The notes: a model not told the origin generated them from the letters alone. DNA of 61,696 nt, filler included, from Porpidia crustulata (GCA_964255105.1; 4 parts of 4 records of this genome joined end to end with filler, not necessarily neighbours in it); one strand, 5' to 3'. Shown: positions 15,129-49,835, counted from the first letter of the whole stretch. Numbers and translations are program-made.

Positions 15129-15365
15129 GTGAGTTGTATTTTTTTCTTCTCTCTTGCTCTTGTGTTACCCTATTTTTAAAAAAGTCAAAATCATCGTGCT
15201 GGGATGGTTTATAAAGTGTTTTTTGGAAACAAGAAGTACATACGGCCATAGACAACAGAGAACTGGGCATCCCGTCCGCTCTGCCATACATAAGCTGTTG
15301 ATCGGGAGGTTAGTAGTTGGGTCGGTGACGACCAGCGAATCCCTTCTGCTGTATGTTTTTGTCTT

Positions 15366-46282: not shown

Positions 46283-46382
46283 NNNNNNNNNNNNNNNNNN
46301 NNNNNNNNNNNNNNNNNNNNNNNNNNTTAATTAATTAANNNNNNNNNNNNNNNNNNNNNNNNNNNNNNNNNNNNNNNNNNNN
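46283..46382. other. Artificial contig linker N44-TTAATTAATTAA-N44
   Basis: Same 100-bp cassette. Confidence 0.99.
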
Positions 46383-46957
46383 GAAGCGATTGTAGCGGGG
46401 TGAGGGGCGGCGGAATTGGGAGGCTGAACGCAGGGGAGAGGTGTGAAGGAGGATATTGTTCTGATGTGTAGTCCTAGAGAAATTGAAGAACGAAGATCGG
46501 AGGAGGGAGGAGAAGAGCTGCGGAGGCATGTTGATGTGTGATGATCCAATAATGTCAATCCTATGCGCCGAAGATCCCTTGTCCTGAACTGGCTAATGAG
46601 GGCCAATGGGGGTTTACCAGTATGGGAGGCCGTGCTGACGGCGGAACGGGAGCGGAATCACCCGTAACGGAGAGTATTTGTAAATAGGTATATGTTAAAC
46701 GTTAAATCCATAATATACTTATTTAATGAACAGCTATCAACTCGCGGGTTTTCTCACAGGTGCTTCTAGTAATGTGCGTTGTTCAAGGCGAAAAGGTCGA
46801 GCGATTCATGTCTACCGGATTGGATGTGGAAGATGATACTGCTGTACAATTACCTAGAATACTCCCTGCTCTTCCTAGACTCCCTCTACCCATGCATTCT
46901 ACTCTTCGCCTAGGAAAATTTTGTGCCAAAATAATACTTTATCCTAAGCATTCCGAT

Positions 46958-49472
46958 TTATATGCTCACGCCATCCATCCCATTCACCAATTCCGTCCCT
47001 ATCTCTGTGTCCACAAGCCCTTTTCCGCCACCGTTCTTCGCCAAAATGTCCTTGAGACATCCTGCACTCACCGCTACGAATCCCAAGTAGGGTTTGCTAG
47101 GCCTTAATACCCGGCTGAGATATTCTGGATGGTACTGCGTCCCCACATACCAAGGATGGTCTTTGAGCTCTAGAATCTCCATACGCTCACCCGAATCATC
47201 TTTGCCGATGAAACAGAGACCGTGCGAGGAGAGCTTATCAACGTACGCGGGATTGACTTCATAGCGATGGCGATGACGCTCAGAAATAGATGGCGGGGTG
47301 GTGGGATCAGATTTGGTGGTCACGGCGCCGTTGGCTGTAGTACCATTGATTGTGATGCCACTTCCATGGATGGACTCCCCTTTTTGGGGGGTCGCTGATG
47401 ATTCACCGTACAGGGCGCGTAGTTTACTCCACTCACTATTCGACTGGAACCACGTTTGGCGTAATCCCAGTCTCATCGTCGCGCCCATTGTTGCTCGGTC
47501 GATTTCAGGCATGAAGATAATGACAGGGTCAGGAGTCCGCTCGTCGAGTTCGATCGAAGCGGCTTTCGGTACGTTACATACATTTCGAGCGTACTCTATC
47601 ACAGCTATTTGCATGCCTGAGTTATAGCCGTTAGCCATACGACCGCTTTGCAGTCTCTATGTCCACTTACCTAGGCATATCCCTAAAAATGGAACATTAT
47701 TCAGACGTGCCCATTTTGCAGCTTCGATCATTCCTTCCGTGCCCCGGTGGCCGAAACCACCGGGAACAAGGATACCGTCAGCAGTGCAGATCTCATGCCA
47801 TGCTTTGTGGAAGTCTGCTGGGGAATTCGCAGAAGCGGCAGGCTCCAAATGAGATGCGTCAACCCATATTAGATTTAATTTACGTGAACAAGCCATAGCG
47901 GCATGTTCTAGCGACTTGACGACGGAAAGATAGCTGTCGTGAAGGCTGGTATACTTGCCTACAAGCGCAATAGTAACTGACTGGTGAAGGTGGTCCTGGG
48001 ATGTTGTGAGTGTTTGCCAAGCCTTCCACGTTCGAGAGCCCCTCTGGATTAGAGATGACGAGATCGTGAGTTCATCAAGGCGAAGGATGTTACGCAGAAC
48101 AGGGATGAGGCCTTGCGTTTCTATAGCGTTCCAAATTAGACATCTGGAGAGGTCGTTTGTAAGCGTAACGTACCGAGTAGAGCAGGAACGTGATAAGTAG
48201 AAGATACATCATGGACGGCTATGACTTGGTTTGGCTCTACCTGGCAGAATTGGGCAATCTTATCTATGGTAGCTTTTTCAAGGGGTTTGGGACATCGACA
48301 GGCAATCTGTGACTGTAAGCTATGGTACAGTGTCTACGAGAGCCTACCTTAAGACAGAACCTACTAGATCAGGTCTCAAACTAGTGAAACAGTCAGCCAG
48401 ATACTTTCAACAGTGTTATTTTACTCGCGAATGGATCAGAGAACATACCCGGCGGACTGCACACTACGTCAGCATGTATCCTCACATTCTTGAGAGGTTT
48501 AAGCATTTCTGAGCATACCCTGACATCCCGTATAGCTTGCTGAGTCGGTTTAGTCTTTTGTTCGCCTACGATTACTGGCACCTATGACTGAGTGAGCTTA
48601 AACTCAGCAGGTACCAAAAAATTGCCCGTTTACATATGAGACATGGATTTGTAAGAAATTGTCTTTGCCAGCTCTTCTTCTCAACTGTCTCATACTTTCG
48701 ATAAAAGGACCAGACTCGATGTCTCTGTTCCATATGTCAGCCTGGCTGTGTATATATGAACATCATCTTAATGTCATTATAACATACCCCACAGTTCCAC
48801 CGAGCTCTATGATACAGACATCTGGCACTTCATTGGTGTCGTCCACCGGTATTCTTGCAACACGTTCTATCCAGTCTTGCACTGCGTCCGTAAGGTGAGG
48901 AACCACTTGTACTGTCCGTCCAAGGTAGTCTCCTCTGCGCTCTCTCTCAATTACGTGTTGATATATTTTGCCTGTAGTGATGTTGTTTTCTCGAGTCAAG
49001 GTAATGTTGAGGTATCGCTCGTAGTTTCCCAAGTCTAAGTCGACTTCTCCACCATCGTCAAGAACAAATACCTCCCCATGTCTGTAACAGTATTTAGCCT
49101 CGGTCGTCTATCAGGGTTACCTGCCGGGAATAATGACATACTCTGTGGGCGCCATTGTTCCAGCATCGACGTTCATGTAAGGATCGATCTTGATCGACGT
49201 GACGTGCAAAGTTCATCAGCTTCCCTTGCCATGTTTGGCAATTGCCACGCGCCATTGAAGGTCACATATCTTCAATCCTATGGTCTTGAGCAGGAGACCC
49301 GTGGAGGAGGCTTTGTTTGCGTCAGAAATGCTTTTCCGTAATCGCGTAGAGTGATTTTGGGGGCGCACCAATTATTCCCTTCCCAATGCCACTTATGACA
49401 CCTTTGAAACGTCAGAGAACTGCCAAGCCTCGAGGTATCATGCTTGCCTCCTGATACTACAACGTATTTCAT
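46958..49472 (-). CDS. URA7: CTP synthase, 12 exons / 11 introns
   Basis: Manual splicing gives [50 protein letters not shown]...GNYERYL...ELGGTVGDIES...GICLGMQ...[10 protein letters not shown]...QYHPEY. Confidence 0.97.
49204..49269 (-). other. AT-AC spliceosomal intron with U2-type signals (intron 3 of CTP synthase)
   Basis: AAG|ATATGT...GCTGAT...TTTGCAC|GTC. Removal restores [12 protein letters not shown]; retention reads into TGA TGA. Confidence 0.85.
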
Positions 49473-49835
49473 GGTTGCGATTTAGGGTTGTCGTCCGAGT
49501 CCTGTCGTTCGAGTCCTCCCGATTGACCGTTGAGAATAATCTATAAGGTTGGTACTTATCACATGCATAGACTGGAAATGGGAGAGCAATCACACAGAAA
49601 GTCGAGCTTGATCGTCTATAGTACTGTTGGATTGATTATAAGTATTCTTTGATTGAATCTAGAAAATTTGGAAGCACAACTTCACAGCAAAGTAAATTTC
49701 CCAAGAACTCTGCGCATGGTTTGACAGTACCGCAACTTCAAGTACAATTCAGCCTCATCATGTGCCCGGATTTTGGGGGCTTGAAGCTTTTCAAGCATCG
49801 TCTGGATAGAGAGACCAGTCTGCTCTACTTCATAA

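What the first reader, a model, noticed from the sequence alone, without database searches (positions are those of the whole stretch)
49204..49269. Apparently obligatory AT-AC intron with U2-type signals in CTP synthase
Seen: on the minus strand, TTG AAG|ATATGTGACC...GCTGATGAACTTTGCAC|GTC ACG TCG ATC AAG. Removing these 66 nt restores the conserved [12 protein letters not shown], while retention hits in-frame TGA TGA. The only in-frame GT-AG alternative I found deletes the conserved VTSIK. The donor ATATGT is the fungal GTATGT with G1A, not the U12 ATATCCTT, and a normal fungal branch point sits about 12 nt from a CAC end. Established: ascomycetes lack the U12 spliceosome, and yeast genetics shows G1A is partly rescued by a terminal G-to-C change. 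Inference: a natural compensated AT-AC intron spliced by the major spliceosome in an essential nucleotide-synthesis gene, possibly a rate-limiting or regulated step. Gene predictors would misannotate it. The intron also holds two overlapping, mutually exclusive inverted repeats (49226-49241 and 49236-49247).
Basis: partly seen in the sequence, partly recalled or inferred. Interest (0 to 1): 0.82.

Follow-up and report, generated by a model that had tools for sequence, protein, structure and literature searches.

The report
Conserved AT-AC intron in fungal CTP synthase
A fungal gene for making the nucleotide CTP carries a rare intron that begins with AT and ends with AC instead of GT and AG, this odd intron has been kept at the same spot in many related fungi, and gene-prediction programs commonly get the gene wrong because of it.

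Summary
On the minus strand, window 49269-49204 is a 66-nt intron, ATATGT...CTGAT(12 nt)...CAC. It sits between Lys33 and Val34 of an otherwise intact 12-exon CTP synthase gene (624 aa). Retaining it gives in-frame TGA TGA, and no GT/GC-AG alternative keeps the conserved VTSIK.

It is not an assembly error. An independent contig build of a public run reproduces the DNA. Five related fungal metagenome loci carry an intron at the same site, with AT...AC ends, an ATATGT or ATAAGT donor and a CTGAC branch site. Their interiors have diverged.

For one relative (L002), a database protein read as one uninterrupted ORF is 100% identical to my spliced model. It also shares the genomic 5' leader. This is transcript-level evidence of exact excision.

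Deposited orthologue proteins carry read-through marks of the AT-AC ends (Ile = ATA after GLK; His/Tyr = CAC/TAC before V[ST]SIK). These occur in six Pezizomycotina classes and possibly in Pneumocystis. Of 81 near-full-length models, 56 are wrong at this junction.

The signals are U2-type, not U12-type. The inverted repeats exist but are neither significant nor conserved. No RNA data exist for this organism, and any regulatory role is untested. It is a new, deeply conserved member of the known AT-AC type II class.

The parts
49204..49269 (-). Intron 3, the AT-AC intron (66 nt, phase 0, between Lys33 and Val34). Donor AAG|ATATGT, branch site CTGAT with its A 12 nt from the 3' end, acceptor TTTGCAC|GT.
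49270..49310 (-). Exon 3 (41 nt), encoding (A)[13 protein letters not shown] and ending in AAG.
49142..49203 (-). Exon 4 (62 nt), encoding [20 protein letters not shown](E).
46958..49472 (-). Whole CTP synthase gene, from ATG 49472-49470 to the stop at 46960-46958. It has 12 exons and 11 introns: i1 49447-49402 GC-AG, i2 49368-49311, i3 49269-49204 AT-AC, i4 49141-49082, i5 48787-48725, i6 48633-48582, i7 48518-48457, i8 48448-48381, i9 48364-48307, i10 48173-48121, i11 47670-47617. The spliced product is 624 aa with no stop.
   Evidence: Pfam CTP_synth_N and GATase on exon translations
49226..49247 (.). Two overlapping 6-nt-arm inverted repeats inside the intron (TGGCAA/TTGCCA/TGGCAA). Present, but not significant and not conserved.

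Best explanation
Window 49269-49204 (minus strand) is a genuine, constitutively required spliceosomal intron of the CTP synthase gene of a Pezizomycotina fungus. By protein similarity the fungus is nearest to lichen-forming Lecanoromycetes. The intron is an AT-AC 'type II' intron. Apart from A at +1 and C at -1, it carries the ordinary local major-spliceosome signals: exon AAG, /AUAUGU, branch site CUGAU 12 nt upstream, and YAC/ in place of YAG/. Inferred mechanism: U1 and U6 recognise the otherwise consensus 5' site and U2 the branch site. In the second catalytic step, the non-Watson-Crick contact normally made by the first and last G of the intron is made by A1 and C-1. This is the same compensation shown by the engineered yeast actin intron. 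Inferred evolution: a single change at either end (GT-AC or AT-AG) would cripple splicing of a needed gene, so the pair is locked in. This would explain why both odd ends are kept in every lineage examined while the intron interior has been rewritten. Shown here: the sequence, the gene model, same-site AT-AC introns in 5 related loci, exact excision at transcript level in one relative, and read-through marks in many deposited orthologues. Inferred: which spliceosome acts, the A-C contact, and the lock-in.
For: (1) Sequence and gene model. The dinucleotide-blind spliced alignment puts the intron at 49269-49204 with no equivalent shift. The other 10 introns of the gene are GT-AG (9) or GC-AG (1), and the product is an open 624-aa CTP synthase.
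(2) Same-site conservation. Of 80 metagenome loci encoding relatives, 5 (L001, L002, L004, L005, L006; the last two near-identical) have an intron after residue 33, and all 5 are AT-AC. In the alignment of the six introns, the invariant columns are AAG|ATA.GT, CTGA and AC|GT, and the interior is unalignable. The 18 other introns I placed in these five loci are all GT-AG.
(3) U2-type signals. Donors are ATATGT (4) or ATAAGT (2). Branch sites are CTGAC/CTGAT 9-12 nt from the 3' end, as in neighbouring introns. There is no ATATCC and no TCCTTAAC-like box. /ATAAGT is the published consensus of U2-type AT-AC introns (passages of PMC5029451 and PMC1557818).
(4) Transcript-level excision in a relative. 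My spliced model of L002 is 100% identical over 589 aa to P0035, a 614-residue uninterrupted ORF from a 2112-nt contig. The 21-residue leader of P0035 is the in-frame translation of L002 DNA just upstream of the ATG. The genomic span for the same ORF is 2213 nt, and the 52-nt AT-AC intron would break the frame.
(5) Read-through marks. Among 306 database proteins, 14 read 'GLKI' (ATA), 15 have His and 4 have Tyr before V[ST][SA]IK (CAC/TAC). One has another residue (Ile, in an exon-skipping model), and none has Gln, which a read-through CAG would give. Named taxa with marks fall in Pezizomycetes, Lichinomycetes, Lecanoromycetes, Eurotiomycetes, Geoglossomycetes and Leotiomycetes.
(6) An independent contig build of run X1 is identical over the gene.
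(7) A passage in the conclusions of PMC2846911 states that U12 splicing is missing in Ascomycota and Pezizomycotina.
Against: No RNA run of this organism was listed, so splicing of this very intron was not seen. The read-through marks are indirect readings of other people's gene models. Which spliceosome acts was not tested. No genome is held, so the absence of minor snRNAs in this organism rests on the literature. In the window, Rfam found only a 5S rRNA. Run X1 is probably the source of the window and so is not an independent sample. A second CTP synthase gene in this genome cannot be excluded.
Confidence: 0.88

Rival explanations
1. The AT and AC ends are sequencing or assembly errors of an ordinary GT-AG intron.
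For: The window comes from one assembly. The only run holding it (X1) is probably its own source, at depth about 12.
Against: Two independent errors at exactly the two terminal bases would be needed. An independent contig build gives the same letters. Five other loci from other samples have AT-AC at the same site. Deposited proteins of many species carry Ile and His/Tyr read-through marks.
Confidence: 0.01
2. It is a U12-type (minor spliceosome) AT-AC intron.
For: AT-AC ends are the classical mark of U12-type introns. The first four bases, ATAT, match /ATATCCTT.
Against: Positions +5 and +6 are GT in 6 of 6 sequences, not CC. Two relatives have ATAAGT. There is no TCCTTAAC-like branch box; instead there is the local CTGAY box at 9-12 nt, as in neighbouring GT-AG introns. 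Ascomycota and Pezizomycotina are reported to lack U12 splicing (PMC2846911 conclusions). No minor snRNA was found in the window, which is weak evidence from 61 kb only.
Confidence: 0.02
3. The intron is kept because slow or conditional AT-AC splicing regulates CTP synthase output, and not merely because it is locked in.
For: The intron has been retained across six classes while the window's relatives differ at six of the gene's eleven intron positions. A transcript-like ORF of the L002 organism (P0025) starts inside intron 4, so partly spliced forms exist. Engineered AT-AC introns in yeast do splice (passage of PMC5029451); that they splice less well than wild type is my recollection of Parker and Siliciano 1993.
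Against: No expression data. Intron length and interior are not conserved, and neither are the hairpins. Retention gives stops or frameshifts of differing kind in different species: 66, 69, 52, 52 and 56 nt. Some relatives have simply lost the intron: L010 and the X4 contig. Lock-in alone explains the conservation.
Confidence: 0.12
4. The locus is a decaying or redundant copy, and the real CTP synthase lies elsewhere in the genome.
For: No genome is held, so copy number is unknown. Some Lecanoromycetes show a second, divergent CTP synthase type. The window gene has an unusual 35-aa insertion and 11 introns.
Against: All 12 exons join into an open 624-aa frame with both Pfam domains. The exons are 93-98% identical to orthologues in the conserved part. 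The N-terminus is of the mainstream type, and all splice signals are intact.
Confidence: 0.03

Closest known systems
U2-type (type II) AT-AC introns of animals, e.g. in human SCN4A and SCN5A (Sheth et al. 2006, PMC1557818, passages read)
   Same: AT and AC ends combined with an otherwise U2-type 5' splice site. The published consensus is /ATAAGT; here the donor is ATATGT or ATAAGT. The borders are conserved over long evolutionary distances (human to puffer fish there; six fungal classes here).
   Different: This one is in a fungus without a minor spliceosome, is very short (52-69 nt), has the fungal CTGAY branch box, and sits in a housekeeping nucleotide-synthesis gene. Dependence on the major spliceosome is inferred here, whereas it was shown experimentally for SCN4A/5A.
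Engineered AT-AC actin intron in yeast (Parker and Siliciano 1993, cited in a passage of PMC5029451; details recalled)
   Same: G1-to-A at the 5' end compensated by G-to-C at the 3' end, spliced by the only (major) spliceosome of an ascomycete.
   Different: That was a laboratory double mutant with reduced efficiency (recalled). This is a natural intron kept by selection in many lineages.
Endogenous AT-AC splicing inside the RPL30 intron of S. cerevisiae (Gould et al. 2016, PMC5029451, passages read)
   Same: AT-AC junctions used in an ascomycete lacking the minor spliceosome.
   Different: The RPL30 event is a 1-2% side product with a 5' site unlike any consensus. Here the AT-AC intron is the only way to make the protein, and its 5' site matches the U2 consensus apart from +1.
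AT-AC junctions counted in fungal RNA-seq surveys: F. graminearum, 2 introns (FGSG_08743, FGSG_10073; supplement file 4 of PMC3577648); SnowyOwl gene models built for three fungi, 0.03% (PMC4084796); Trichoderma, 69 of 14,305 junctions (PMC4324775). Xylanase genes of filamentous fungi were hypothesised to hold type II introns (PMC1557818).
   Same: Shows that AT-AC introns exist at low frequency in filamentous ascomycetes.
   Different: None of the passages I read names CTP synthase or reports deep conservation of one such intron. I could not tell what the two Fusarium genes encode (one search found no paper).
U12-type AT-AC introns
   Same: The terminal dinucleotides, and stronger positional conservation than ordinary introns.
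   Different: The 5' site and branch box do not match, and the host lineage is reported to lack the machinery.

Membership tests
U2-type (type II) AT-AC intron | Intron begins with AT and ends with AC at the true exon junctions | tested here: met
   The dinucleotide-blind spliced alignment gives AT-AC with no equivalent shift in the window and in L001, L004, L005 and L006. In L002 the AT-AC placement gives KVSSIK, and it is confirmed by 100% identity to P0035.
U2-type (type II) AT-AC intron | 5' splice site matches the U2-type consensus except at +1 (the criterion of Sheth et al. 2006) | tested here: met
   The donors are AAG|ATATGT or AAG|ATAAGT, against the neighbouring introns' GTATGT/GTAAGT/GTGAGT. 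No formal weight-matrix score was computed.
U2-type (type II) AT-AC intron | Lacks the U12 5' box (ATATCCTT) and the U12 branch box (TCCTTAAC) | tested here: met
   Positions +5 and +6 are GT in 6 of 6. The branch box is CTGAC/CTGAT at 9-12 nt from the 3' end. No CCTTAAC-like word was seen in the aligned introns; this was checked by eye, and no pattern search was run.
U2-type (type II) AT-AC intron | Actually excised at these junctions in RNA | tested here: inconclusive
   Not seen for the window, as no RNA run was listed. For relative L002, an uninterrupted 614-residue ORF (P0035) with the genomic 5' leader equals the spliced model. That this ORF comes from a transcript contig is inferred.
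U2-type (type II) AT-AC intron | Splicing depends on U1/U2/U4/U6, not on U11/U12/U4atac/U6atac | not testable with these tools
   Rests on the reported absence of U12 splicing in Ascomycota/Pezizomycotina (PMC2846911). No genome is held for this window.
U12-type AT-AC intron | /ATATCCTT 5' site and TCCTTAAC branch box 10-15 nt from the 3' end | tested here: not met
CTP synthase (Pfam CTP_synth_N + GATase) | Both domains present in one open spliced frame | tested here: met
   PF06418, E = 1e-44, on exon 5. PF00117 on exons 11 and 12. The spliced product is 624 aa.

The most novel reading that the evidence does not exclude
The AT-AC intron of CTP synthase may date back to the common ancestor of Pezizomycotina and Taphrinomycotina. 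Pneumocystis gene models read GLK-I-C, i.e. ATATGT, at the same junction. It may be a fossil of an ancestral U12-type AT-AC intron that was captured by the major spliceosome when ascomycetes lost the minor one, keeping its ends but swapping its internal signals. If so, it would be a dated, natural example of a U12-to-U2 conversion that did not pass through GT-AG, preserved by a two-mutation fitness valley for several hundred million years.
Probability: 0.1. Interest if true: 0.8.

Novelty: new member of a known kind. Interest (0 to 1): 0.6.

Why it matters
First, it offers a natural, long-running test of the rule that the first and last bases of an intron must match (G with G, or A with C). 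Both odd ends are kept in every lineage examined while the rest of the intron has been rewritten, and this is in organisms that have only the major spliceosome.

Second, it has a practical consequence. Of 81 near-full-length database models retrieved with the conserved exon, only 25 have the correct junction. The rest are truncated to a downstream Met, skip exons, or read into the intron. As a result they lose the N-terminal glycine-rich [10 protein letters not shown] stretch or the invariant VTSIK motif. Annotation pipelines that admit AT-AC only for U12-like signals will keep repeating this error in Pezizomycotina.

Third, the intron is a convenient substrate for studying how efficiently a fungal major spliceosome handles AT-AC ends.

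Tried and rejected
RNA evidence for this organism: the look-up of sequencing runs listed no RNA holder. Only X1 (DNA-like, probably the source), an air metagenome with a small share, and two runs of the same study were listed.

Read laying gave no joints at the intron. Two X2 contigs follow the window from 49136/49142 up to 49208 and then diverge, so a relative has a different intron there. Its terminal base was not shown, because the table was cut.

Whole genome: not held. Copy number and minor snRNA genes therefore could not be checked.

The origin of these ORFs (metatranscriptome or not) is therefore inferred from their properties.

U12-fossil idea: none of the other 75 loci has an intron after residue 33. 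The few intron-bearing ones have them after residues 8, 37, 39 or 66. Basidiomycota, Mucoromycota and yeasts are all annotated with a clean junction, which is uninformative. A search for CTPS + minor intron + U12 found no paper.

Literature searches found nothing on this intron: AT-AC + CTP synthase (one unrelated maize paper), AT-AC + Pezizomycotina, AT-AC + ascomycete/intron/non-canonical, AT-AC + Aspergillus/Neurospora/splice, AT-AC + Pneumocystis (none), and the two Fusarium gene ids (none). One hit (PMC3091305) was a false match to 'KS-AT-ACP'.

Inverted repeats as a functional structure: rejected (z = -0.69; not conserved).

The search of earlier findings returned nothing for this genome.

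The repeat finder on the minus strand was a format slip and was repeated on the plus strand.

Full report
**What is in the window.** On the minus strand, between about 49472 and 46958, lies a CTP synthase gene. Exon translations match Pfam CTP_synth_N (E = 1e-44) and GATase.

I wrote a spliced protein-to-DNA aligner that charges the same penalty for any intron ends, and ran it with a correctly annotated orthologue (P0016) as guide. It returned 11 introns of 46-68 nt, plus two spurious gaps: a 35-aa in-frame insertion and the unalignable C-terminus. After allowing equivalent shifts, nine introns are GT-AG, intron 1 is GC-AG, and intron 3 is AT-AC with no equivalent placement.

Joining all exons gives an open 624-aa frame. 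Retention gives two in-frame TGA codons. Of 31 GT/GC..AG pairs of at least 30 nt in the exon 3-exon 4 interval, 8 are in frame and open. Every one of them deletes VTSIK or more.

**Is it an artefact?**
- No RNA run of the organism is listed.
- Laying Logan contigs of the one full holder (X1) gave a 13,425-nt contig at depth 12 with no difference over 46950-49520. That run is probably the window's source, so this excludes an assembler slip but not a read-level one.
- The stronger argument is comparative. A metagenome scan with the conserved exon 5 returned 80 loci. Running the aligner on all 80, only five have an intron after residue 33, and all five are AT-AC: L001, L002, L004, L005 and L006 (the last two near-identical). 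In L002 the aligner first chose a GT-CT placement that mimics the guide's VTSIK. The AT-AC placement gives KVSSIK, and it is the one confirmed below.
- Aligning the six introns with 9 nt of flank, the invariant columns are AAG|ATA.GT, the branch box CTGA, and AC|GT. The interiors differ in length (52-69 nt) and cannot be aligned.
- The 18 other introns I placed in these five loci are all GT-AG.

Two simultaneous errors repeated in six assemblies is not credible.

**Which kind of AT-AC intron.**
- The donors are ATATGT (4 of 6) or ATAAGT (2 of 6). That is the local GTATGT/GTAAGT with A at +1, not the U12 /ATATCCTT.
- The branch box is CTGAC/CTGAT with its A 9-12 nt from the 3' end, the same as in neighbouring GT-AG introns.
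- The 3' end is YAC in place of YAG.
- Published passages give /ATAAGT as the consensus of the few known U2-type AT-AC introns and describe their identification by exactly this criterion (PMC5029451; PMC1557818). The latter counts only 15 in human, 6 in mouse, 3 in Drosophila and none in C. elegans or Arabidopsis, and mentions that xylanase genes of filamentous fungi were hypothesised to hold such introns.
- The conclusions of PMC2846911 state that U12 splicing is missing in Ascomycota and Pezizomycotina.
- In the window itself, Rfam finds only a 5S rRNA. The genome is not held.

The major spliceosome is therefore the inferred machine, not a demonstrated one.

**Transcript-level evidence in a relative.** I spliced L002 in a script using the AT-AC junction and compared the product with all stored proteins. 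It is 100% identical over all 589 residues to P0033 and to P0035.

P0035 is a 614-residue protein without an initial Met, from a 2112-nt JGI contig. Its extra N-terminal residues (AKTSKGTFYISLRQYKTRIAI) are exactly the in-frame translation of L002 DNA just upstream of the ATG.

By my arithmetic from the coordinates, the genomic span from that first codon to the stop is 2213 nt and contains five introns. The 52-nt AT-AC intron would break the frame. An uninterrupted ORF on a shorter contig must therefore come from spliced RNA of that locus. I could not fetch the contig or its cluster record, so 'transcript contig' is an inference from these properties. L002 is 99.8% identical to the deposited Cadophora malorum model, which is truncated to MNVDAGTM.

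**How far the intron reaches.** The deposited orthologue proteins carry tell-tale errors at this junction.
- First search, 120 proteins: 8 read GLK followed by Ile (ATA). 17 have His (13) or Tyr (4) directly before V[ST][SA]IK (CAC or TAC). 28 start at a downstream Met. 31 are correct.
- All three searches, 306 proteins: 14 read GLKI; 15 have His, 4 have Tyr and one has Ile (an exon-skipping model) before the motif; 145 are correct. A read-through of a canonical CAG would give Gln, and none does.
- Near-full-length models: of the 81 proteins of at least 460 aa in the first search, only 25 have the right junction. 17 carry an AT/AC mark, 24 are truncated and 15 are wrong in other ways. Those 15 include two non-Pezizomycotina rows (Allomyces, Ascaris) flagged for unrelated reasons.
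- Named species with marks belong to Pezizomycetes (Rhizina), Lichinomycetes (Phylliscum), Lecanoromycetes (Lasallia), Eurotiomycetes (Ophidiomyces), Geoglossomycetes (Geoglossum) and Leotiomycetes (Rhynchosporium), plus leotiomyceta of uncertain position.
- Three Pneumocystis models read GLKICIF, GLKISIK and GFKIW at the same place. This hints that the intron also exists in Taphrinomycotina, but without DNA it is only a lead.
- Basidiomycota, Mucoromycota, budding yeasts, Schizosaccharomyces and Taphrina are annotated cleanly, which says nothing either way.
- Some relatives lack the intron: L010 and a contig of run X4 that reads LKTMGLKVSS continuously.

**Mechanism.**
- *Shown:* the signals, the junction, the conservation of both ends, and excision in one relative.
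- *From established knowledge:* the yeast double mutant spliced in vivo (cited in PMC5029451). The A-C contact itself, and the structural work on the second-step active site, are recalled. On that basis A1 and C-1 can replace the G1-G-1 contact needed for exon ligation.
- *Inferred:* because either single reversion would give a mismatched pair in a gene whose product needs this junction, the AT-AC state is an evolutionary trap that can be left only by intron loss or a double change. That fits what is seen, namely losses and no mixed ends among six genomic sequences. The sample is small.
- *A small supporting detail:* Lys33 is AAG in 6 of 6 intron-bearing genes but AAA in the two intron-less sequences seen. 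This is as expected if the exon G at -1 helps U1 pairing when +1 is mismatched.

**What is not supported.**
- The two overlapping inverted repeats are there, and the palindrome occurs once in the window. But the intron folds no better than shuffles, and the relatives have nothing similar.
- A regulatory or rate-limiting role has no evidence.
- 'Essential' assumes one copy. Some Lecanoromycetes appear to have a second, divergent CTP synthase, and this genome could not be searched.

**Novelty.** AT-AC type II introns are a known kind, and AT-AC junctions have been counted in fungal RNA-seq surveys (PMC3577648 supplement file 4; PMC4084796; PMC4324775; passages only). My searches of the open library for this intron found nothing that names CTP synthase or reports a deeply conserved AT-AC intron in Pezizomycotina. 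Subscription papers and supplements are not covered. I therefore file it as a new, unusually well conserved member of a known kind, with a practical annotation consequence.

By similarity of the variable C-terminal exon, the organism is nearest to Lecanoromycetes, at only about 60-70% identity.

Noticed in passing
window 49402-49447 (minus strand): Intron 1 of the same gene is GC-AG (GCAAGC...CTGAC...CAAAG, 46 nt). The four relatives with this region (L001, L002, L004, L006) have GT-AG at the same position.
   Followed up: partly
window 48449-48456 and 48365-48380 (minus strand): Two micro-exons of 8 nt and 16 nt (encoding SAG and LRPDL) flanked by introns of 62, 68 and 58 nt. The window gene has 11 introns where L001, L002 and L006 have 5.
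   Followed up: partly
window about 47291-47395 (minus strand): An in-frame insertion of about 35 residues, rich in Ser/Thr/Gly/Pro, within the glutaminase domain relative to orthologue P0016. My aligner treated it as a gap. It has no splice signals and lies inside one long ORF.
   Followed up: no
window 49254-49260 and 49270-49276: A 7-nt perfect inverted repeat pairs the last 7 nt of exon 3 with intron nt 10-16, which would loop out the AT 5' splice site. The matching segment is not present in L001.
   Followed up: partly
window 15238-15357 (+): A 5S rRNA gene (Rfam RF00001, 73.8 bits), the only Rfam match in the window.
   Followed up: no
proteins P0230, P0240, P0273, P0278, P0284, P0290 and others: Several Teloschistales and Physciaceae lichen fungi have a CTP synthase with a distinctly different N-terminus (MATKYLLVSGG...SLGVLLKS... 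or ...GGGMSGIGKG...). This suggests a second paralogue in some Lecanoromycetes.
   Followed up: no
L002 versus protein P0025: P0025 (549 aa, from a 2213-nt contig) is 100% identical to the L002 product from residue 55 on, but starts inside intron 4. It looks like a partly spliced transcript of the same locus.
   Followed up: no
window about 46331-46400: The window holds 264 N. Some lie just downstream of the gene, shown as X in the ORF translations.
   Followed up: no
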